From an uncultured bacterium (lineage in GTDB: Bacteria > Patescibacteriota > Minisyncoccia > Phycocordibacterales > GWA1-40-21), in contig CAILDB010000003.1 of assembly GCA_903832855.1 (NCBI GenBank), positions 15,398 through 79,397 of the forward strand: a stretch of 64,000 nucleotides of DNA. Reading direction: 5' to 3'. Each line of letters opens with the position of its first letter. The first letter of the stretch is position 1. Of this stretch, positions 7,047 to 56,187 are shown piece by piece. The notes under the pieces were generated by a model. That model was not told the origin of the DNA, searched no databases, and saw only the letters and a list, made by a program, of their open reading frames with translations. The position numbers and the translations under genes are program-made.

Positions 7047-7078
7047 AGCGAGGAAAATATTTCCTCGCTCTTTTTTTA
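7047..7078 (+). terminator. Rho-independent terminator
   Basis: GAGCGAGGAA-aatat-TTCCTCGCTC followed by TTTTTTT. Confidence 0.6.
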
Positions 7079-7084
7079 TTTCGA

Positions 7085-7160
7085 CAAGCAAGGAGCAAAG
7101 TGGAAAATTCTTATTTTACATTTTGTCCGAGCGAAGTCGAAAGAAAGGGTAGGGCCCCTT
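7085..7160. repeat. Copy of GC-rich repeat module (GAGCAAAGTGGAAAATTCTTATTTTACATTTTGTCCGAGCGAAGTCGAAAG)
   Basis: Near-identical to the module inside the composite repeat at 19330-19400 (GAGCAAGGTGGAAAATCTTATTTTACATCTTGTCCGAGCGAAGTCGAAGC). Confidence 0.5.
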
Positions 7161-7654
7161 TATTTCACTCCCAAAAGTTCTATCTCAAAATAAAGAGTTG
7201 AATTTGCAGGAATTGGACCGTTTGAACTTGCACCATATCCTAGATTTGGTGGAATAACGAGAATTCTTTTTCCGCCAACTTTCATACCAGTCACACCAAG
7301 GTCCCAACCTTCAATAACTTGCCCCGCACCAAGTGTAAATGTAAATGGTGTTCCTCTATCAATCGAACTATCAAACTTTGTGCCATCTGTAAGTACCCCG
7401 ACATAATTTACAGTAATACTTTTACCAGCTACTGCTTCTGCACCTGTTCCAACAACTTCATCTTTAATTCCTAATTGTGTATTATTCACTTGATTTAAAT
7501 TATTAGTACCTGTTGCATTTTGATCTACCTCTGCGACTTGCTGTGTGTCAGCTGTTCCCAGAAACTGATCAAAAATTCCACCGACCCATCCGACAAAAAC
7601 TAAGACTACAATAACTGCGATTGTAATTGCTATACCTTTTGTTGTTTTATTCAT
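7160..7654 (-). CDS. FKBP-type peptidyl-prolyl cis-trans isomerase, membrane-anchored
   Basis: 164 aa. N-terminal TM, then an FKBP domain (GDxVxVxYxGxLxDGxxFDSS...FxLGxGxVIxGWDxGVxGMKVGGKRxLxIPP). Confidence 0.8.
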   Translation of the reverse strand: MNKTTKGIAITIAVIVVLVFVGWVGGIFDQFLGTADTQQVAEVDQNATGTNNLNQVNNTQLGIKDEVVGTGAEAVAGKSITVNYVGVLTDGTKFDSSIDRGTPFTFTLGAGQVIEGWDLGVTGMKVGGKRILVIPPNLGYGASSNGPIPANSTLYFEIELLGVK

Positions 7655-8523: not shown

Positions 8524-8683
8524 AAAGCAAAAAGGTTTTTGTAAAAAATAACCTCGTAGCAAAATGCTTTTGAATTGACTTGGGAGCGCGACGGCGCGAG
8601 CACGAGGAATTTTTTAGCAAAAAAATATCCGTGCAATTCAAAAGCTTTTTGTGGAGAGGTTTTTACAAAAACCTTTTTGCTTT
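8524..8683. repeat. Nested palindromic GC-rich repeat, family A core, filling the convergent intergenic gap
   Basis: The outer 24-bp perfect inverted repeat AAAGCAAAAAGGTTTTTGTAAAAA / TTTTTACAAAAACCTTTTTGCTTT encloses the core TTTTGAATTGACTTGGGAGCGCGACGGCGCGAGCACGAGGAATTTTTTAGCAAAAAAATATCCGTGCAATTCAAAAG. The same core is at 23349-23435 and 25838-25925. Confidence 0.55.
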
Positions 8684-16718: not shown

Positions 16719-16958
16719 ATGAGGAGAGTGTCAGACGAAACCTTGACCGCAGAAGTGAAAACTCTGTTCAAGGAAGGCAGGTCGGTGAATTGGGCGACGA
16801 AGGTGGCCTTTCATCGGCACGGGATATTCGACCGTCCGAGATTTGGAAGAATTTGTCAGGCGGTCGAAAAAGCGTTGGGGATAAGTCCCCCAGCATCACT
16901 GAAAGTCGAGCAGACCGCGCATGCCCCGTATTATTACGAAACTGGGCAATACGCCTGA
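16719..16958 (+). CDS. Hypothetical 79-aa protein (GC-rich stand-alone cassette)
   Basis: MRRVSDETLTAEVKTLFKEGRSVNWATKVAFHRHGIFDRPRFGRICQAVEKALGISPPASLKVEQTAHAPYYYETGQYA. Own promoter, SD and terminator. Markedly higher G+C than its neighbours. Confidence 0.5.
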   Translation: MRRVSDETLTAEVKTLFKEGRSVNWATKVAFHRHGIFDRPRFGRICQAVEKALGISPPASLKVEQTAHAPYYYETGQYA

Positions 16959-16978: not shown

Positions 16979-17008
16979 CCGAGTGCACCCGCGCTCGGCT
17001 TTTTTATT
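16979..17008 (+). terminator. Rho-independent terminator
   Basis: GCCGAGTGCAcccGCGCTCGGC followed by TTTTTTATT. Confidence 0.6.
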
Positions 17009-17123
17009 GCCGAAAATGATAAAAAATGTTATATTCTTTTAGCGAATGAGATGTTATGGCTAAAACAATTTTTATCTGATAAAAATTGTTCGCCCGAACA
17101 TTTTTGAAGCAAAAATGTTTTAG

Positions 17124-17195
17124 GGCTCTATCGTCTAACGGTTAGGACATAGCCTTCTCAAGGCTAGAATCGCGGTTCGATTCCGCGTAGAGTCA
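17124..17195 (+). tRNA. tRNA-Glu (anticodon CUC)
   Basis: Manual cloverleaf. Acceptor GGCTCTA/TAGAGTC, D-arm GTCT-AACGGTTA-GGAC, anticodon arm TAGCC-TTCTCAA-GGCTA (CTC), T-arm CGCGG-TTCGATT-CCGCG. No CCA encoded. Confidence 0.8.
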
Positions 17196-17363
17196 CAAAA
17201 ATTTGCGGAGCATAATTTTTGTGATTTTTAAACGCAAAAGTTTTTGCGTTTAAAAAGAATCGAAAGACGGAGGCCGACGGGCCGAGTCGGGGTCGCAAGA
17301 TTTTTCAGCAGAAAAATACTTGTGACCGAAAGCGTACTCGCGTTTCCGCGTAGAGTCACAAAT
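17181..17363. repeat. Direct duplication of the tRNA-Glu 3' end (TCCGCGTAGAGTCACAAA at 17181-17198 and 17345-17362) bracketing a ~150-bp GC-rich structured element (module B)
   Basis: The second copy lies 164 nt downstream of the first. The intervening GACGGAGGCCGACGGGCCGAGTCGGGGTCGCAAGATTTTTCAGCAGAAAAATACTTGTGACCGAAAG is homologous to 51130-51205 and 19290-19345. Confidence 0.5.
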
Positions 17364-17467
17364 TTAGTAACTCGTGACTACATAAATAGTTTCCATAATT
17401 TCTATTGCATTTTTTATATAAAAGAATAGTATTGAATTTAGAAGATCTTAAACACAGGAAGGATAAT

Positions 17468-17617
17468 ATGAAAAAGGTGAAGATTGTTTATCGTCTGAAG
17501 AGGTGGATAAGTGAGCCGTCAATTACTTCTTTTGGCTCAAACCAGTATTATCCAAGATGGGAGTCCGTCTTGAAAGATTTAGGATGCCTATTCACACTGG
17601 GTTTATACAAACCGTAA
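17468..17617 (+). CDS. Hypothetical 49-aa basic protein (first gene of a GC-rich two-gene cassette)
   Basis: AGGAAGG SD before the ATG at 17468. Protein is MKKVKIVYRLKRWISEPSITSFGSNQYYPRWESVLKDLGCLFTLGLYKP. The ORF-track version starts further upstream at 17405. Confidence 0.4.
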   Translation: MKKVKIVYRLKRWISEPSITSFGSNQYYPRWESVLKDLGCLFTLGLYKP

Positions 17618-17664
17618 CCGCTCTCACAGAGCGAAGAAACCCGACAAGAAAGGAAACCGTAATG

Positions 17665-17817
17665 ACAAAGCGTGATTACGCACGAAAGGCCGAACTTCTT
17701 GCCGAACTTGCTAGTCTTGAGATTAGGGATAGCGACGAGGGTAACTTCAACATAGCTGATGAGTATCTTGACAGAGCTAAGTCAGCTATCAAAAAAATGC
17801 GGGAAACGCACGAGTGA
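17665..17817 (+). CDS. Hypothetical 50-aa acidic helical protein (second gene of the cassette)
   Basis: AAAGGAAACCGTA-ATG. Protein is MTKRDYARKAELLAELASLEIRDSDEGNFNIADEYLDRAKSAIKKMRETHE, followed by a terminator. Confidence 0.4.
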   Translation, partial: TKRDYARKAELLAELASLEIRDSDEGNFNIADEYLDRAKSAIKKMRETHE

Positions 17818-17833: not shown

Positions 17834-17865
17834 GAGCACATCAGCAATGGTGTGCTCTTTTTTTA
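17834..17865 (+). terminator. Rho-independent terminator
   Basis: GAGCACAtcagcaatggTGTGCTC followed by TTTTTTT. Confidence 0.6.
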
Positions 17866-19225: not shown

Positions 19226-19492
19226 AAATCTCGCAAGAAAAATTTGAAAATTTTGCTAGGGGTGGCGATCCTGTTCCTTTTGAAATACATTGCGCAGGCC
19301 GACTGGGCCGAGCATAACAAATTTTCAGCAGAATATTACTTCGACGAGCGAGGAGCAAGGTGGAAAATCTTATTTTACATCTTGTCCGAGCGAAGTCGAA
19401 GCAAGAAGATTCTTATCTTCTTATGTGCGTATTTCAAAAGGAATAGGTCGACAGGACCCCGTGAAATTTTCTAATTTTTCTTGCGAGATTTT
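19226..19492. repeat. Composite GC-rich nested-palindrome repeat (family A ends + module B + 7085-type module)
   Basis: Outer 31-bp inverted repeat AAAAATCTCGCAAGAAAAATTTGAAAATTTT / AAAATTTTCTAATTTTTCTTGCGAGATTTTT (one mismatch). Inner ends GCTAGGGGTGGCGATCCTGTTCCTTTTGAA ... AAAAGGAATAGGTCGACAGGACCCCGTGAAATTTT are shared with the 23333 and 25824 copies. Fills the ftsI-murF gap. Confidence 0.6.
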
Positions 19493-23303: not shown

Positions 23304-23481
23304 ACACAAAATTAAGAGACTGAAAATTTTGTTAGGGGTGGCGATCCTGTTCCTTTTGAACTGACTTGGGAGGCTGACTGAGCCGAGCACGAGGAATTTT
23401 TTAGCAAAAAAATATCCGTGCAGTTCAAAAGGAATAGGTCGACAGGACCCCGTGAAATTTTCAGTCTTTTAATTTTGTGTC
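23304..23481. repeat. Composite nested-palindrome repeat, family A
   Basis: Outer inverted repeat ACACAAAATTAAGAGACTGAAAATTTT / AAAATTTTCAGTCTTTTAATTTTGTGT. Inner sequence GTTAGGGGTGGCGATCCTGTTCCTTTTGAACTGACTTGGGAGGCTGACTGAGCCGAGCACGAGGAATTTTTTAGCAAAAAAATATCCGTGCAGTTCAAAAGGAATAGGTCGACAGGACCCCGTGAAATTTT. Confidence 0.6.
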
Positions 23482-25805: not shown

Positions 25806-25958
25806 CCAAAAATTTTGTTAGGGGTGGCGATCCTGTTCCTTTTGAACTGACTTGGGAGCGCGACTGGCGCGAGCACGAGGAATTTTTTAGCAAAAAAATA
25901 TCCGTGCAGTTCAAAAGGAATAGGTCGACAGGACCCCGTGAAATTTTTCGGCTGAAAA
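25806..25958. repeat. Composite nested-palindrome repeat, family A
   Basis: GTTAGGGGTGGCGATCCTGTTCCTTTTGAACTGACTTGGGAGCGCGACTGGCGCGAGCACGAGGAATTTTTTAGCAAAAAAATATCCGTGCAGTTCAAAAGGAATAGGTCGACAGGACCCCGTGAAATTTTT, about 95% identical to the 23333 copy, with short flanking inverted repeats. Confidence 0.6.
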
Positions 25959-43600: not shown

Positions 43601-44476
43601 ATGTCATTAAAAGATTTTGAAGTTTATACAATTAAGAAGGCAGAGATGCCCGAATTGCTTCAGGAAATTCCGGATTGCCCGGAAAAACTTTTTGTTCAGG
43701 GTAAGATGCCGGGACCAGAAACCAAATTGCTTTGTGTTGTTGGCTCTCGCAAATTCACACCATACGGAAAAGAGGCCTGCGAGAAGCTTATCTCTGGTCT
43801 TCGCGGATATGACATTACTATTGTTTCTGGACTTGCAATGGGAATTGACGGTATTGCACATCAAGCAGCACTTTCTGCAGGACTAAAAACTATCGCAGTT
43901 CCGGGTTCAGGACTTTCAGAAAAAGTTTTATCACCACGAACAAATATTCCTATTGCAAATAAAATTTTGGAATCAGGTGGTGCGATGCTTTCCGAATTTG
44001 AAATGGATTTCATCGCCACACCATATAGCTTTCCACAAAGAAACAGAATTATGGCGGGGCTTTCTCACGCCACACTTGTCATAGAAGCGGAAATAAAATC
44101 TGGCACACTCATCACTTCCAAATACGCGACAGAATACAACAGAGATGTCTTTACTGTGCCAGGCTCAATTTTTTCAAAAAATTCTGATGGCCCAAACATG
44201 CTTATCAGACTTGGTGCGACACCCATTCGCACAAGTTCAGATATTTTGGAAGCCCTTGGCTTCAAAACAGATGAGGAACCGCAAAATCTTACGCTGAAAT
44301 ATTCTGATTGCTCACCCGAAGAATTACTTGTAGTTGAAATTCTGCAAAATCCAATGTCAAAAGACGACCTCGTCAGAAAAATGAAAATGCCAATTTCACA
44401 AGCGAGTGCTGTAATTTCAATAATGGAAATAAAAGGATTGCTCGAAGAAAGTATGGGAGAAATGCGTTTGATTTAA
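43601..44476 (+). CDS. dprA: DNA processing protein DprA/Smf
   Basis: 291 aa. Rossmann-like DprA core (VVGSRKFTPYGKEACEKLISGLRGYDITIVSGLAMGIDGIAHQAAL) and C-terminal winged helix. Confidence 0.85.
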   Translation: MSLKDFEVYTIKKAEMPELLQEIPDCPEKLFVQGKMPGPETKLLCVVGSRKFTPYGKEACEKLISGLRGYDITIVSGLAMGIDGIAHQAALSAGLKTIAVPGSGLSEKVLSPRTNIPIANKILESGGAMLSEFEMDFIATPYSFPQRNRIMAGLSHATLVIEAEIKSGTLITSKYATEYNRDVFTVPGSIFSKNSDGPNMLIRLGATPIRTSSDILEALGFKTDEEPQNLTLKYSDCSPEELLVVEILQNPMSKDDLVRKMKMPISQASAVISIMEIKGLLEESMGEMRLI

Positions 44477-49715: not shown

Positions 49716-49801
49716 GCCAGAGTGTTGAAATGGTAAACAAACTCGACTCAAAATCGAGCGCTCGTAAGGGCTTGTGGGTTCAAGTCCCACCTCTGGCACC
49801 A
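49716..49801 (+). tRNA. tRNA-Leu (anticodon CAA), CCA encoded
   Basis: Acceptor GCCAGAG/CTCTGGC, 3-bp D-stem, anticodon arm CTCGA-CTCAAAA-TCGAG (CAA), long variable arm, T-arm GTGGG-TTCAAGT-CCCAC, discriminator A plus CCA. Confidence 0.85.
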
Positions 49802-50984: not shown

Positions 50985-51025
50985 AGTTTATTTATTAATG
51001 ATTTTGTGCTATATTTTACTGGCAC

Positions 51026-51096
51026 GGGAGATTAGTGAAATGGTATCACAAGGCACTCCAAACGCTTTAGTGGGGGTTCGATTCCTCCATCTCCCG
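51026..51096 (+). tRNA. tRNA-Trp (anticodon CCA)
   Basis: Acceptor GGGAGAT/ATCTCCC, D-arm GTGA-AATGGTA-TCAC, anticodon arm AGGCA-CTCCAAA-CGCTT (CCA; 31-39 mismatch), T-arm GGGGG-TTCGATT-CCTCC, discriminator G. Boundaries +/-1 nt. Confidence 0.7.
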
Positions 51097-51227
51097 CAAA
51101 AAATCTCATTTATGAGTTTTTTTATGGAGGAATCGAAGACCGGAGCGCGACGGCGCGAGGCGGGGTCGAGCAAATTTTCAGCAGAAAATTATGCGTGACC
51201 GAACTTCCTACATCTCCCGCAATAATC
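51081..51227. repeat. Direct duplication of the tRNA-Trp 3' end (TTCCTCCATCTCCCGCAAAAAATC / CTTCCTACATCTCCCGCAATAATC) bracketing a ~105-bp GC-rich module-B element
   Basis: The inserted GACCGGAGCGCGACGGCGCGAGGCGGGGTCGAGCAAATTTTCAGCAGAAAATTATGCGTGACCGAAC is homologous to 17268-17340 (at tRNA-Glu), with compensatory GGCC/GGCC to GCGC/GCGC hairpin changes. Confidence 0.5.
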
Positions 51228-51231
51228 AAAA

Positions 51232-51262
51232 AGCCCCGCGTAATCGCGGGGCCTTTTGAATT
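51232..51262 (+). terminator. Rho-independent terminator
   Basis: GCCCCGCGtaatCGCGGGGC followed by CTTTTGAATT. Confidence 0.5.
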
Positions 51263-53905: not shown

Positions 53906-55183
53906 GTGCGAAAGCACAAAGGAGAAGACGCAATGAAAACGCTAGTATTCACGCTGTTCTTGATCTGTGCAATTATTATTGTACTTGCACCATTCGTGCT
54001 AATTGTAATGTGGGCCTATAAAAAGGCAGACATTCCACTTGGGCCAGAGACAAACTGGTTCGCTAAATGCCGCCCTGGTAAGTTTATGGGCGTCCTCTTA
54101 GGAGGAGACATCTCGAAATGGTTGAGTAATGTAAATGGGTTGAGCATAAAAGGTAAGGAAGGAATGTTCACCTATAACGAGGGTGACGACCCTACCATCA
54201 AGTTGATCGAGTCTGAGAATGAGGAAGAAGGTGGCAAAATCGGTCATCTTCCAAAACGCTTCTATGAGGCTCTGAATCAACCGCCCAAAAGAACATCGCT
54301 AGCCATGTCTGGTATCCATTGGATCTGGTTTAAACCAGTTGGTGGAATTCTTAAGAAGATGTCTAGGTGGCTCGAGTGGGTGGAAGTCTTGTCGGACGAA
54401 AAGAAAGACAAGAAAGAGACAGGGAAGAGTAACCAGATACTTGCGCAAAGAGTGAAACTACGCGAGGAGTTCATTTGGGACTTCTCCATCGGAATGCAGG
54501 TGTTGATGGTTGCTCTCGATATTGAGGCTGGTAAGGCAGACCCTGTAACTACGGGGGGCAAGAAAATGATTGGGGATCTGGTGGCTGAAAAAATCGCACT
54601 AGATTTCTATGCCGTGTTCACAGTGTACATCCTTTGCCCGTACAAGGCGGTGATCATCGCTGACTGGGTCAAGGCACTGAAAGCAGAATGGGAAGCAGTT
54701 TGTACAGATTATGCAAAGGCACATTCTGTTGATCAAGCCTTCATGAAGGAGCATCTCGATACAGAAGTCATCGATAAACTCTTCCAGAGTAACCCGAAAC
54801 TCCTCCAGAAGTACGGGTTCGTGATTGGCAATATTCAGTACGAAGGTGCTGGATTTAGCGGAGATAACGAAAAATTCCGTGATGCTAGTGGTATGGCATG
54901 GATGGCTCAACAGGAAGCTGCGGCGATTAAAACCAAGGCAGATGCTTCTGCTTATGAGATATTAACCAAAGCAACTGCAACAGGAAAAGCGAACAGGCTA
55001 GAAATAGCCGGCCTTCTAAAAAACCCAGAAATGGGGAAAGCGCTATTGTGGCAACGCGCCGTCAGCGGTCACAAAGGACCTTTGTTCCTCGGAAAAGGGT
55101 CCGGAAATGGCATGCTGATACAAGACACAGCGGAGAAGGAGCCCGCTCCTGTACCCACAACAAAAGAAGGAGTTAAGAAATGA
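53906..55183 (+). CDS. Hypothetical membrane-anchored protein, possibly SPFH/band-7-like (GC-rich)
   Basis: 425 aa. N-terminal TM (LVFTLFLICAIIIVLAPFVLIVMWAY). The C-terminal Ala/Glu-rich helical region (AQQEAAAIKTKADASAYEILTKATATGKANRLEIAGLLKN) is reminiscent of SPFH C-termini. Weak assignment. Confidence 0.45.
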   Translation: MRKHKGEDAMKTLVFTLFLICAIIIVLAPFVLIVMWAYKKADIPLGPETNWFAKCRPGKFMGVLLGGDISKWLSNVNGLSIKGKEGMFTYNEGDDPTIKLIESENEEEGGKIGHLPKRFYEALNQPPKRTSLAMSGIHWIWFKPVGGILKKMSRWLEWVEVLSDEKKDKKETGKSNQILAQRVKLREEFIWDFSIGMQVLMVALDIEAGKADPVTTGGKKMIGDLVAEKIALDFYAVFTVYILCPYKAVIIADWVKALKAEWEAVCTDYAKAHSVDQAFMKEHLDTEVIDKLFQSNPKLLQKYGFVIGNIQYEGAGFSGDNEKFRDASGMAWMAQQEAAAIKTKADASAYEILTKATATGKANRLEIAGLLKNPEMGKALLWQRAVSGHKGPLFLGKGSGNGMLIQDTAEKEPAPVPTTKEGVKK

Positions 55184-56187
55184 TAGCAAACATGTGGAGT
55201 ATGATATCCCCATGGATATGGTGGGTATTTACAATCACCATTGTGGTGCTTGTGACCTATCTTTGCTGGTGGTTCCGACATGTCATACGAAAAAAGTGGC
55301 AGTGGATTGTGAAGGTTCCATGGGGTCTCTTCATAAAACCAATTGGTCACAGTGTGAAGATAAAAATAAGCGAAAAGTTTTCGCGTCTTCGCACAAAGGT
55401 GCCGGTCATGACGATCAAGCAACCCGAGAAGAAGTTCTCGTGGTGGTTGCTAATCGGTGTAGGGTTCCTTGTCCTCATCATTTGGGGACTCTGGCGCCTT
55501 GCACTTAAAGTCGTGGGTCTTGGACACACGATAGCATCAGGAGGAAATGGTGGCTGGGGTATGTTGTGGGTACTGCTGCCCATAGCCATTGCAGGATTCC
55601 TGGTTGTACAACTGGTCCGTGTGTTCAAGCCAGCCAAAAGGAAAGAAGAAAAAAAAGCCGACGAGCTGGCAGATGAACAGACCAATAGACTGAGAGGAAA
55701 AGATTCCGCCAAGTCGAAAGTCGGCTGGGTGGGAGTGATTCTCAAGGTAGTAGGTTGGTTGATTCTCGCCGGCCTTGTGGTTGATATGGTCTCATATGTG
55801 AGATCGTGTAATGATGATAAGGTCAGGGTTGAAATGGCGCAGGTACAGGAGCAAGAAAAATCAACCCTTGGTGATTGGACATACTCATGGGAGTTACCAC
55901 CCGAGGGAGGTATTGGTTCCTGCCAAATAATAGAAAAGGGCTGGTGCAAGGCCCGAGTTCAAGAAGATAACATCAACCAGTGGCTGATCGTCGCATCCGA
56001 CGAATACAAACATAAAATCCATATGGTTGGAAAAAGAAATGGAGAAAAAGGGTCTGGACACTGGACCCAAAATACAGGTGAGTATGGAGATTGGGAATTA
56101 GAGAGGGTTTCTCGAAGAAGATGGGAGGGTTGGGCAACCACCTCAGAACATCCGGGAAAAAAGTTAGACATTGCCCTCTACAAATAA
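55180..56187 (+). CDS. Hypothetical polytopic membrane protein (GC-rich; ATGA overlap with upstream gene)
   Basis: 335 aa. Four predicted TM segments, a Lys/Glu-rich loop and a ~130-aa Trp/Gly-rich soluble C-terminal domain. No known domain. Confidence 0.45.
   Translation: MIANMWSMISPWIWWVFTITIVVLVTYLCWWFRHVIRKKWQWIVKVPWGLFIKPIGHSVKIKISEKFSRLRTKVPVMTIKQPEKKFSWWLLIGVGFLVLIIWGLWRLALKVVGLGHTIASGGNGGWGMLWVLLPIAIAGFLVVQLVRVFKPAKRKEEKKADELADEQTNRLRGKDSAKSKVGWVGVILKVVGWLILAGLVVDMVSYVRSCNDDKVRVEMAQVQEQEKSTLGDWTYSWELPPEGGIGSCQIIEKGWCKARVQEDNINQWLIVASDEYKHKIHMVGKRNGEKGSGHWTQNTGEYGDWELERVSRRRWEGWATTSEHPGKKLDIALYK

What the first reader, a model, noticed from the sequence alone, without database searches (positions are those of the whole stretch)
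17124..17363. tRNA-Glu and tRNA-Trp each carry a duplicated 3' end bracketing a homologous 105-150-bp GC-rich structured module (att-site-like scar or tRNA-targeting mini-element)
At tRNA-Glu, TCCGCGTAGAGTCACAAA (17181-17198) recurs at 17345-17362. At tRNA-Trp, TTCCTCCATCTCCCGCAAAAAATC (51081-51104) recurs as CTTCCTACATCTCCCGCAATAATC (51204-51227). The sequences between the repeats are homologous to each other at about 80%: ...GGCCGACGGGCCGAGTCGGGGTCGCAAGATTTTTCAGCAGAAAAATACTTGTGACCGAA versus ...GCGCGACGGCGCGAGGCGGGGTCGAGCAAATTTTCAGCAGAAAATTATGCGTGACCGAA. The GGCC/GGCC to GCGC/GCGC stem change is compensatory. A duplicated tRNA 3' end is the classic footprint of site-specific integration, yet no integrase and no cargo lies between the repeats. 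Either the islands were deleted leaving attL-attR plus a structured remnant, or a miniature non-autonomous element uses tRNA 3' ends as targets in trans. The adjacent GC-rich cassettes (16719-16958, 17468-17817) may be residual cargo.
Basis: partly seen in the sequence, partly recalled or inferred. Interest (0 to 1): 0.6.

Follow-up and report, generated by a model that had tools for sequence, protein, structure and literature searches.

The report
tRNA-linked structured repeat element of Patescibacteria
Behind two tRNA genes sits a gene-less, highly folded ~120-165-base element, flanked by a second copy of that tRNA's own tail; it recurs behind many tRNA genes across the ultra-small Patescibacteria, matches no catalogued RNA family or paper I found, and most likely inserted itself into the tRNA genes.

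Summary
tRNA-Glu carries an exact 19-nt repeat (17181-17199 and 17344-17362). tRNA-Trp carries an 18-nt repeat with one mismatch (51082-51099 and 51205-51222). Each pair brackets a homologous core (77% identical) with compensatory stem changes.

An exact-pattern scan of 185,579 species genomes returned 78 loci, nearly all labelled Patescibacteria. About three quarters of copies with sequence upstream lie 17-70 nt behind a tRNA of at least 11 amino-acid types. Each unit has four parts:
- spacer hairpin(s);
- an inverted copy of that tRNA's T-loop and T-stem;
- a ~75-nt three-way-junction core (24 pairs, 97.8% paired, 14 covarying, G·U on the tRNA strand);
- a direct copy of the tRNA from C56 past its 3' end, sometimes including trailer and terminator (up to 62 nt).

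No Rfam family matches. Close relatives have empty tRNA-Trp sites. Tandem copies occur, and so do arrays with accessory or defence-like genes between copies. No integrase was found.

Best reading (0.5): a non-autonomous integrative element that enters the tRNA T-loop, supplies a replacement 3' end and displaces the original. The main rival is a resident functional RNA in the tRNA trailer. The mechanism is inferred, not shown.

The parts
17124..17196 (+). tRNA-Glu(CUC), intact. Its last part from the T-loop (17181-17199, including the 3-4 nt trailer CAAA) is direct-repeat copy 1.
   Evidence: ARAGORN; Rfam tRNA 60.3 bits; repeat.
17197..17256 (+). Spacer of the Glu/Lys-type unit, with two AU-rich hairpins: A about 17197-17221, B about 17225-17256 (UUUUUAAACGCAAAAGUUUUUGCGUUUAAAAA).
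   Evidence: Sequence. The same two-hairpin spacer, with compensatory differences, lies behind tRNA-Glu and tRNA-Lys in L102, L103, L114, L117, L119 and L132.
17257..17330 (+). Conserved core. J1/2 is GAAUCGAAAG, where AAUCGAA is the reverse complement of this tRNA's T-loop UUCGAUU. P2 spans 17266-17288 (3 bp, a GGA/GA internal loop, 4 bp, GACG loop). GG follows. P3 spans 17291-17327 (AGCA loop, bulged A at 17318). GAA follows.
   Evidence: CM R1 98.9 bits; pair counts; MFE z = -4.0 on the + strand; 98.6% identical to the L114 core.
17331..17343 (+). P4 mini-hairpin (A GCG UACU CGC G U), present in the 'class B' units behind Glu, Trp, Lys, Gly and Ala tRNAs.
   Evidence: Variants GCG/CGC, GUG/CAC, GCGG/CCGC and CAUG/CAUG with UACU or UAAU loops occur in other loci.
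17344..17362 (+). Direct-repeat copy 2 of the tRNA-Glu 3' part: T-loop end, T-stem 3' strand, acceptor 3' strand, discriminator and trailer CAAA.
   Evidence: Exact 19-nt match.
51026..51097 (+). tRNA-Trp(CCA), intact. Positions 51082-51099 form direct-repeat copy 1.
51105..51123 (+). Short spacer: weak hairpin CUCAU-UU-AUGAG followed by U7.
   Evidence: Sequence. Not called by the terminator scan.
51124..51137 (+). Left (inverted) arm AUGGAGGAAUCGAA. It is a perfect 14-nt complement of the real tRNA-Trp segment UUCGAUUCCUCCAU. It pairs less well with the distal copy.
   Evidence: Read.
51130..51203 (+). Conserved core of the Trp unit, with the same P2 and P3 architecture.
   Evidence: CM R1 91.0 bits; MFE z = -2.6 on the + strand against -0.1 on the - strand.
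51205..51227 (+). Direct-repeat copy 2 of the tRNA-Trp 3' part. Its T-stem is CCUAC and its trailer CAAUAAU, which resemble the tRNA-Trp of relatives L157 and L161 rather than the window's own tRNA. I read it as the displaced older 3' end.
51233..51252 (+). Strong intrinsic terminator after the distal copy. In relatives with an empty site the equivalent terminator follows the tRNA directly.

Best explanation
Each repeat pair marks one copy of a gene-less, roughly 120-165-nt structured element specific to Patescibacteria. The element is inserted at the T-loop of a tRNA gene.

Reading from the tRNA T-loop, a unit has four parts:
- X: the tRNA from C56 to a few bases (sometimes tens of bases) past the 3' end. 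This copy now serves as the working 3' end of the tRNA.
- Spacer hairpin(s).
- X': an inverted copy of the T-loop, the T-stem 3' strand and, when fresh, the acceptor strand.
- A conserved three-way-junction core, which is four-way in class B.

Behind the core lies a second X, the displaced original tRNA end, followed by the native trailer and terminator.

Shown:
- the anatomy described above;
- the covariation in the core and spacer;
- duplication that runs into non-functional trailer;
- empty and occupied orthologous sites;
- tandem copies and arrays carrying genes;
- the absence of a linked recombinase.

Inferred:
- The element moves as a small circle or folded single strand in which X pairs with X'. 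That pairing would form a hairpin copying the target duplex, capped by the spacer at one end and the core at the other.
- A recombinase supplied in trans exchanges strands at or near U55|C56.
- Only insertions into a tRNA with a matching 3' end survive, because the element replaces that end.
- After insertion, X' and the distal X decay independently.

The element lies inside the tRNA transcription unit. It is therefore probably also made as RNA, and the core may work at the RNA level.
For: Distribution and linkage to tRNAs:
- 78 loci in species genomes, almost all labelled Patescibacteria.
- 73 of 125 tRNAs in those loci have a module within 200 nt downstream on the same strand.

Target-derived arms:
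- The module's 3' flank copies the neighbouring tRNA's own end. The median exact match is 12 nt against 5 for mismatched pairs. Matches of 12 nt or more occur in 36/61 against 3/1104.
- Copies run past the discriminator into the trailer: 26-30 nt in L080 and 62 nt including the terminator hairpin in L157.
- J1/2 is the reverse complement of the neighbour's own T-loop in about 40/56 units. Examples are UUCGAUU to AAUCGAA, UUCAAGU to ACUUGAA and UUCAAAU to AUUUGAA.
- Where the two direct copies differ, the left arm agrees with the tRNA copy 77 times and with the distal copy 34 times. This is what independent decay from one template predicts.
- None of 50 module-less tRNAs carries an inverted copy of its own end.

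Structure:
- 24 pairs, 97.8% paired against 30-45% when partners are slid.
- 14 pairs show double changes.
- G·U pairs occur only on the tRNA strand.
- The spacer hairpin P0 has 11 of 15 pairs with compensatory changes.

Mobility:
- The miaA-tRNA-Trp-rpmG locus is occupied in the window and in L157, where the tRNA and module are inverted together.
- It is empty in L158, L159, L161 and L162.
- L153 holds a perfect 144-nt tandem.
- Arrays carry accessory genes between copies: L082 has TIR, SLATT and PGDYG domains; L099 has cyclodipeptide-synthase-like, SET and peptidase genes; L148 has NYN, nucleotidyltransferase and GrpB.
Against: - No recombinase or transposase was found between the repeats or in any 8-kb locus. 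None was among the recurrent neighbour genes, which are all housekeeping. None was among 10 window ORFs tested.
- No free or circular form and no phage-borne copy was found.
- Core similarity is no higher within a genome or within one tRNA type than in the background. There is therefore no sign of recent bursts.
- The yqeY-tRNA-Glu-module arrangement recurs in distant genomes, which would also fit old vertical inheritance.
- A junction with a conserved tandem-GA internal loop, a bulged A and fixed loops looks more like a functional RNA than a DNA recombination site.
- The sample was chosen by an exact 25-base pattern, so it over-represents intact cores.
- The left-arm/right-arm pairing beyond about 10 bp is only weakly better than cross-pairs (median -11.6 against -10.3 kcal/mol, P = 0.009).
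Confidence: 0.5

Rival explanations
1. Resident functional RNA. The unit is a host-beneficial RNA domain in the tRNA 3' trailer. It is co-transcribed and cut out by RNase Z and RNase P because its closing helix and 3' tail imitate the tRNA T-arm and acceptor end. It then acts as a small RNA, or as a processing or stability element. The duplications are only how it was built locally, and it does not move.
For: - The module lies between the tRNA and its terminator. For Glu the order is promoter-like site at 17007-17035, tRNA, module, small ORFs, terminator at 17834-17857. For Trp the only strong terminator follows the distal copy.
- Covariation is strong and G·U pairs are strand-specific in P0, P2, P3 and P4.
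- Internal-loop and loop nucleotides are invariant.
- Neighbouring genes are housekeeping and syntenic across distant genomes.
- There is no within-genome homogenisation.
Against: - It does not explain why each of at least 11 tRNA types independently acquired both an inverted and a direct copy of its own 3' end.
- It does not explain why the direct copy runs into trailer and terminator (62 nt in L157).
- It does not explain why close relatives lack the unit at tRNA-Trp.
- It does not explain why copies bracket accessory-gene cargo.
- The acceptor part of the mimic decays freely in many copies, so tRNA-end mimicry is not maintained.
Confidence: 0.3
2. Scar of larger integrated islands. Ordinary integrase-carrying islands once sat at these tRNAs. 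Internal deletion left attL, attR and the att-proximal arm, and the 'module' is that arm.
For: Some copies do bracket 0.7-3.5 kb of accessory genes (L082, L083, L099, L148). The direct repeat begins in the T-loop, as with T-loop-type integrases (general knowledge of tRNA-targeting integrases).
Against: - The same deletion end-point would have to recur at dozens of tRNAs and genomes.
- The cargo-bearing copies themselves contain no integrase.
- The core shows compensatory evolution and near-identity across distant genomes: 98.6% between the window and L114, and 93% between the window Trp unit and L109.
- L153 holds a perfect tandem of the 144-nt unit.
Confidence: 0.12
3. Chance repeat, or a tandem partial tRNA pseudogene unrelated to the intervening sequence.
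For: Partial tRNA copies do occur near some modules (L083 4112-4185, L119 about 7055-7125).
Against: Repeat and module co-occur in dozens of loci. Direct copies of a tRNA end are found with modules: 38/74 tRNAs with a module, against 3/50 without one, and those 3 may hide divergent modules the model missed, which I did not check. Chance expectation is about 0.
Confidence: 0.02

Closest known systems
Genomic islands and prophages that integrate into the 3' part of tRNA genes (tyrosine-integrase att duplication, T-loop sublocation)
   Same: An intact tRNA lies at one end and a displaced partial 3' end at the other. The direct repeat starts in the T-loop. Occupied and empty sites both exist, as do tandem arrays and accessory or defence cargo in some copies.
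   Different: The element carries no integrase. Most copies are 120-165 nt with no genes. It has a conserved RNA-like junction core and an inverted copy of the target next to it. The repeat length varies from 15 to 62 nt.
Folded single-strand attachment sites: CTX phage attP(+) and other Xer-exploiting elements, and integron attC sites
   Same: The idea is the same: a hairpin formed by two inverted arms imitates the target duplex. Folding is strand-specific. No recombinase is needed within the element. Gene cassettes sit in arrays punctuated by the structured site.
   Different: The target is a tRNA T-loop, not dif or attI. No GTTRRRY/RYYYAAC boxes are present. Here the central part is the conserved part and the arms vary, the opposite of attC. 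Involvement of Xer or IntI is untested.
Bacterial MITEs and palindromic repeat elements (REP/BIME, Correia, RUP, IS200/IS605-derived palindromic elements)
   Same: Small, non-coding, multi-copy and intergenic. They fold into long hairpins when transcribed and break metagenome assemblies.
   Different: The arms derive from the target and differ for each tRNA, rather than being the element's own terminal inverted repeats. There is no fixed short target-site duplication. Insertion is strictly at tRNA 3' ends, on the tRNA strand.
RNAs released by tRNA-processing enzymes through a tRNA-like end (plant tRNA-snoRNA dicistrons, mascRNA/MALAT1, the tmRNA tRNA-like domain)
   Same: A T-arm/acceptor-like helix with a discriminator lies at the 3' end of a transcript that starts at a tRNA. 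This could recruit RNase Z, RNase P and the CCA-adding enzyme.
   Different: The mimic copies the neighbouring tRNA exactly and then decays. No processing data exist. There is no sequence or Rfam similarity.
TIGR-Tas stem-loop guide arrays (PMC12045711), also common in Patescibacteria
   Same: Hairpin-enclosed units with conserved internal motifs occur in the genomes of parasitic bacteria. Both may contain tandem G·A motifs.
   Different: TIGR units yield 36-nt dual-spacer guides next to a Nop-domain Tas gene. Here there are no variable spacers inside the unit, no Tas gene nearby, and the unit is tied to tRNA genes (neighbour scans).

Membership tests
tRNA-targeting integrative element (integrase type) | Direct repeat of the tRNA 3' segment flanking the insert, with the tRNA intact at one end | tested here: met
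   window; 61 loci.
tRNA-targeting integrative element (integrase type) | Element-encoded tyrosine or serine integrase | tested here: not met
   The 123-164 nt between the repeats hold no ORF. No recombinase domain appeared in cargo ORFs or recurrent neighbours or in 10 window ORFs. The whole genome was not available.
tRNA-targeting integrative element (integrase type) | Occupied and empty versions of the same site in related genomes | tested here: met
   tRNA-Trp is occupied in the window and L157, and empty in L158, L159, L161 and L162.
MITE | Terminal inverted repeats shared by all copies, and a short target-site duplication of fixed length | tested here: not met
   The arms copy each host tRNA. 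Repeat length ranges from 15 to 62 nt.
MITE | Small, non-coding and multi-copy within a genome | tested here: met
   The 64-kb window holds 2 canonical copies and 4 related ones. Nine assemblies each contribute two loci.
Integron attC / folded attP of Xer-exploiting elements | Imperfect palindrome that folds on one strand only | tested here: met
   G·U pairs occur on the + strand (GU in 18 sequences at one pair, and an invariant G44·U74). The - strand of the Trp unit folds no better than shuffles.
Integron attC / folded attP of Xer-exploiting elements | Conserved R/L boxes (GTTRRRY) or dif-like arms, and dependence on IntI or XerCD | tested here: not met
   No such boxes appear in the alignment. 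Enzyme dependence cannot be tested with these tools.
Any Rfam 15 RNA family | A match at or near the gathering score | tested here: not met
   Only tRNA hits in the window. Nothing in 17000-17500 at E<=10 except tRNA and noise. Only tRNA and LOOT in 16 module loci.
tRNA-like (minihelix-capped) processed RNA | A stacked T-stem/acceptor-like helix with a discriminator that RNase P, RNase Z or the CCA-adding enzyme can use | tested here: inconclusive
   A T-stem-like closing helix of about 10 bp is general. The acceptor-length helix is present only in a minority: an inverted 12-mer in 8/74, and duplex energy barely above controls.
TIGR-Tas array | Periodic dual-spacer units adjacent to a Nop-domain Tas gene | tested here: not met
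   Units are single or few, have no variable spacers, and no Nop-domain neighbour was seen.

The most novel reading that the evidence does not exclude
The unit may be a protein-less mobile replicon of about 150 nt. It would be a dumbbell-shaped single-stranded circle (DNA or RNA) whose stem imitates the 3' third of a specific tRNA gene and whose conserved junction core carries the activity or recruits host tRNA or recombination enzymes. It would then integrate into, and travel with, tRNA genes across a whole phylum, occasionally carrying defence genes. That would be a new class of mobile element and would suggest a route by which accessory genes enter genomes where I found no linked recombinase.
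Probability: 0.15. Interest if true: 0.95.

Novelty: new variant of a known kind. Interest (0 to 1): 0.72.

Why it matters
Patescibacteria have tiny genomes, and no recombinase or transposase turned up in any of the loci examined here. Even so, this window alone carries six copies of one structured-repeat superfamily.

A phylum-wide, gene-less element could do several things if it really does rebuild tRNA 3' ends and sometimes brackets defence or accessory genes:
- explain how these reduced genomes acquire variable genes at tRNA loci;
- explain assembly breaks next to tRNAs in metagenome bins;
- supply a new conserved RNA or DNA fold (three- or four-way junction, tandem G·A loop, fixed GACG and AGCA loops) with an unknown protein partner.

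It is also a practical annotation problem. The units are unannotated, absent from Rfam, and create spurious small ORFs such as 17244-17429 and 50998-51198.

Tried and rejected
- Rfam at gathering and at E<=10: only tRNA and noise.
- Self-cleaving ribozymes, SRP RNA, tmRNA, Y-RNA-like RNA, T-box and group I intron: considered from sequence and rejected. There is no Rfam signal and the core motifs do not fit. Group I introns of Patescibacteria tRNAs sit in the anticodon loop (PMC13011429).
- Viral contigs: the loose pattern gave 76 hits, all chance matches in high-GC phages. The canonical pattern gave 0.
- Linked recombinase: clustering of 1,126 ORFs from 78 loci gave only housekeeping families.
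- Ungapped scoring of the closing helix was too crude. It was replaced by duplex energies, which showed that the long acceptor-length helix is not general.
- Within-genome or same-tRNA similarity of cores: no signal.
- The idea that the core inserts into a pre-existing palindrome behind tRNAs: rejected, because module-less tRNAs have none.
- IS110 bridge-RNA-like and IscB/TnpB guide-RNA readings: rejected. The two arms are complementary to each other over the same target segment, and no such gene is nearby.
- TIGR-Tas: rejected.
- Two literature searches for a prior description found none.

Full report
**1. The observation**

ARAGORN and Rfam place tRNA-Glu(CUC) at 17124-17196, tRNA-Leu(CAA) at 49716-49801 and tRNA-Trp(CCA) at 51026-51097. 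The Glu repeat is an exact 19-mer, TTCCGCGTAGAGTCACAAA, at 17181-17199 and 17344-17362. The Trp repeat is 18 nt with one mismatch, at 51082-51099 and 51205-51222, followed by trailers that differ by a 1-nt indel.

The sequences between the repeats share a core, at 17257-17330 and 51130-51203, that is 77% identical. A degenerate 39-nt core pattern occurs exactly twice in the window and never in shuffles. The window is an AT-rich (about 37% GC) chromosome of a Minisyncoccia/Paceibacteria-type member of the Patescibacteria. It carries leuS, rmuC, yqeY, miaA, murJ and dprA.

**2. It is a large family**

Rfam has no match. I scanned one genome per species (185,579 species) with GACGGNNNGAGNCGGGGTCG-N20-32-GTGACCGAA. 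The scan returned 78 loci. Almost all are labelled Patescibacteria: Saccharibacteria, Paceibacteria, Minisyncoccia, Nomura-, Kaiser-, Taylor-, Morani-, Campbell-, Berkel- and Sungii-bacteria. The inner gap is nearly always 26 nt. The list may be capped.

A tRNA lies a few tens of bases upstream on the same strand in most copies, apart from those truncated by a contig end. At least 11 amino-acid types are represented: Ser, Trp, Tyr, Val, Arg, Glu, Lys, Ile, Gly, Ala and Leu. Many copies sit at contig ends, as expected of a repeat.

**3. Anatomy**

An alignment of 75 cores supports a three-way junction:
- J1/2 is (A)UUCGAAAG, AAUCGAAAG or AUGAGAAAG.
- P2 is a 3-bp helix whose middle pair covaries (C:G 49, A:U 15, G:C 5, U:A 4). 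It continues through an invariant GGA/GA internal loop to a 4-bp stem with a GACG loop.
- GG links P2 to P3.
- P3 is a 16-17-bp hairpin with an AGCA-type loop and an invariant bulged A.
- GAA follows.

Over 24 pairs, 97.8% of cells are paired, against 30-45% when partners are slid. Fourteen pairs show double changes. No shuffle reaches the observed covariation score. G·U pairs lie on the tRNA strand, so that strand folds, as RNA or as single-stranded DNA.

'Class B' units, which include the window's Glu unit, add a 3-4-bp hairpin P4 after GAA. Its variants are compensatory: GCG/CGC, GUG/CAC, GCGG/CCGC and CAUG/CAUG.

The spacer is also structured. In Ser, Val, Tyr and Trp units a hairpin P0 begins 2-3 nt after the discriminator, and 11 of its 15 pairs show compensatory changes. 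Glu and Lys units have two AU-rich hairpins that covary between genomes.

**4. The flanks are copies of the neighbouring tRNA**

Directly after the core, or after P4, comes a copy of that tRNA from C56 of the T-loop to the discriminator and beyond. It continues into the gene's own trailer, not into CCA. The median exact match is 12 nt, against 5 for mismatched tRNA-module pairs. Matches of 12 nt or more occur in 36/61 units against 3/1104 controls. The copy reaches 26-30 nt in L080 and 62 nt in L157, where it includes the terminator hairpin.

On the 5' side of the core, J1/2 and the preceding bases are the reverse complement of the same tRNA's T-loop and T-stem 3' strand. T-loops UUCGAAU, UUCGAUU, UUCAAGU, UUCAAAU and UUCGACC give AUUCGAA, AAUCGAA, ACUUGAA, AUUUGAA and GGUCGAA. 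This holds in about 40 of 56 units; the exception is the AUGAGAA variant.

The inverted arm usually matches through the T-stem only. The median perfect run is 4 nt beyond CGAAU, and in a few units it reaches 11-18 nt. The direct copy runs a median of 14 nt. Duplex energy between the left arm and its own right flank is only modestly better than between unrelated copies. The long 'acceptor minihelix' is therefore not a maintained feature.

Where the two direct copies differ, the left arm agrees with the tRNA copy 77 times, with the distal copy 34 times and with neither 87 times. That pattern is expected if the inverted arm and the distal copy were both made from the tRNA end and then decayed independently. 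It is not expected if they co-evolve as a helix.

In the window's Trp unit the left arm is a perfect 14-nt complement of the real tRNA. The distal copy instead carries the T-stem (CCUAC) and trailer of the tRNA-Trp seen in relatives L157 and L161. It looks like the displaced older end.

**5. Evidence that DNA moved**

*The tRNA-Trp locus.* I fetched the miaA-tRNA-Trp-rpmG-murJ locus from six relatives with MiaA identity of 61-81%. L157 has the module, and there the tRNA plus module are inverted relative to the window. In L158 and L159 the tRNA abuts miaA with no module. In L161 and L162 the tRNA is followed directly by its terminator and then by the next gene (in L161, rpmG). These are true empty sites.

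*The tRNA-Glu locus.* L165 (YqeY 81% identical) has a divergent unit with the two hairpin loops swapped, plus a 14-nt direct repeat. The model misses this unit. L164 (84%) has scrambled module pieces upstream of the tRNA.

*Tandems and arrays.* L153 holds a perfect 144-nt tandem. Three loci show arrays in which copies of module plus tRNA end, or of tRNA end plus flank, bracket accessory genes:
- L082: 3 kb with ThsB-TIR-like, DUF4231/SLATT and PGDYG genes, flanked by a 178-nt repeat that is 97% identical.
- L099: 3.5 kb with cyclodipeptide-synthase-like, SET and trypsin-like genes. PEMT, nucleotidyltransferase and MerT genes lie beyond it.
- L148: four boundaries, with NYN, nucleotidyltransferase and GrpB genes.

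L083 has 0.7 kb inserted between the tRNA and the unit, bounded by GGTCAC on both sides. None of 50 module-less tRNAs has an inverted copy of its own end. The arms therefore arrive with the module.

**6. What was not found**

No integrase or transposase turned up in any cargo or among recurrent neighbours. The neighbours are housekeeping genes (PilM/N/O, MiaA, ClpB, MurA, CCA-adding enzyme, RmuC, YqeY, ParB, TsaD, UDG), so the units sit in conserved synteny. None appeared among ten window ORFs either.

No copy exists in the viral collection. Cores in one genome, or behind one tRNA type, are no more alike than the background. Some cores are nevertheless almost identical between different assemblies, such as the window Glu unit and L114 at 98.6%.

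**7. Transcription context**

For Glu, a promoter-like site at 17007-17035 precedes the tRNA. No terminator is called until 17834-17857, after the module and two small ORFs. For Trp, the only strong terminator (51233-51252) follows the distal copy. The units are therefore probably transcribed with the tRNA.

**8. Interpretation**

The best fit (0.5) is a non-autonomous integrative element. It consists of X (tRNA C56 to the 3' end plus some trailer), spacer hairpin(s), X' and the core. It recombines at the T-loop of a tRNA gene with a matching 3' end, so its own X becomes the working tRNA end and the original end is displaced behind the core.

This accounts for:
- the fixed left boundary of the repeat at C56;
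- the variable right boundary of the repeat;
- the trailer and terminator duplication;
- the empty sites, the tandems and the cargo arrays;
- the left arm matching the tRNA copy rather than the distal copy;
- the independent decay of the arm and the distal copy.

The free form, the strand-exchange point and the enzyme are all inferences. The X:X' hairpin capped by spacer and core resembles the target-mimicking folded attP of CTX phage and integron attC sites. I tested no recombinase, and the box motifs of those systems are absent.

The main rival (0.3) is that the unit is chiefly a functional RNA of the tRNA trailer. The rich, conserved junction architecture favours some RNA-level or protein-binding role, and the two readings are not exclusive. 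The 'scar of deleted islands' reading (0.12) needs the same deletion to happen many times. The 'unrelated pseudogene or chance' reading is refuted.

**9.

The 79-aa ORF at 16719-16958 has homologues at the same place in L164 and L165 (30-39% identity). It is a resident gene, not cargo. The ORF at 17557-17817 is absent from both relatives. An unrelated 124-aa ORF replaces it in L164, and a different neighbour gene follows the unit in L165. The segment between the unit and the Mur ligase gene is therefore variable and could be cargo, but this is not shown.

**10. Novelty**

I found no Rfam family and no paper in the searched library that describes this element. Group I introns of Patescibacteria tRNAs (PMC13011429) and TIGR-Tas arrays (PMC12045711) are different things. 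I classify it as a new variant of known kinds (tRNA-targeting integrative elements, structured miniature repeats). It carries an unusually elaborate conserved fold and arms derived from the target.

Noticed in passing
window 8567-8636, 19277-19345, 23358-23424, 25839-25909 (+ strand): A second repeat family shares the module's two hairpins: the 4-bp stem with a GAC(U)G loop, and the long hairpin with an AGCA loop and bulged A. It has a different closing helix (CUUUUGAA...UUCAAAAG) and no tRNA nearby. Three copies sit inside a further conserved outer helix (GGGGUGGCGAUCCUGUUC...GGAAUAGGUCGACAGGACCCC). All are flanked by locus-specific inverted repeats. MFE z-scores are -6.5 to -8.3, and there is no Rfam hit. 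Similar tRNA-independent copies occur in L081, L093, L115, L124 and L125.
   Followed up: partly
L119 about 7055-7205: The 5' part of a tRNA-Glu-like sequence is fused directly to a divergent module (66.7 bits). The canonical tRNA-Glu and its module lie just downstream. It looks like an insertion into the T-loop of a full tRNA copy.
   Followed up: partly
L157 3006-3212 compared with window 51026-51227: The tRNA-Trp plus module unit is inverted between two close relatives (MiaA 81% identical), while miaA, rpmG and murJ keep their order. The unit has flipped as a block.
   Followed up: no
L165 4467-4683: A divergent unit behind tRNA-Glu has the GACGG-type loop and the CAGCAG-type loop on swapped hairpins. 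The covariance model does not find it, so model-based 'empty site' calls need checking by eye.
   Followed up: partly
window 53906-56187 (+ strand): Two adjacent ORFs (425 and 335 aa) with no Pfam match lie in the most GC-rich stretch of the window (0.474 against about 0.37). This may be foreign DNA.
   Followed up: no
window 43601-44476 (+ strand): A DprA (single-strand DNA processing for natural transformation) gene is present. It is relevant if the element travels as single-stranded DNA.
   Followed up: no
L100 4219-4346 and L143 2318-2449: LOOT RNA (RF03000) matches above the gathering score lie in loci that also carry modules.
   Followed up: no
L083 4112-4185 (- strand): A partial tRNA-Glu pseudogene (5' two-thirds, with an altered D-arm) lies just upstream of the real tRNA-Glu. 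A 30-nt stretch of it repeats perfectly in the tRNA.
   Followed up: no
L148 157-260, 3507-3594 and 5678-5707: The repeated sequence after the distal tRNA-Ser end (CCGCUACAAAAACUUUCUUUCGGAGUGACCC...GGAACGUUCGAAUCCCAGAU) looks like another structured boundary element, with its own T-loop-like motif. It recurs four times between accessory genes.
   Followed up: no
window 17244-17429 and 50998-51198: Mechanical ORFs of 61 and 66 aa run through the two modules. They are artefacts of the structured element and could be mis-annotated as genes. One related contig has a 66-aa gene called at the Trp module.
   Followed up: partly
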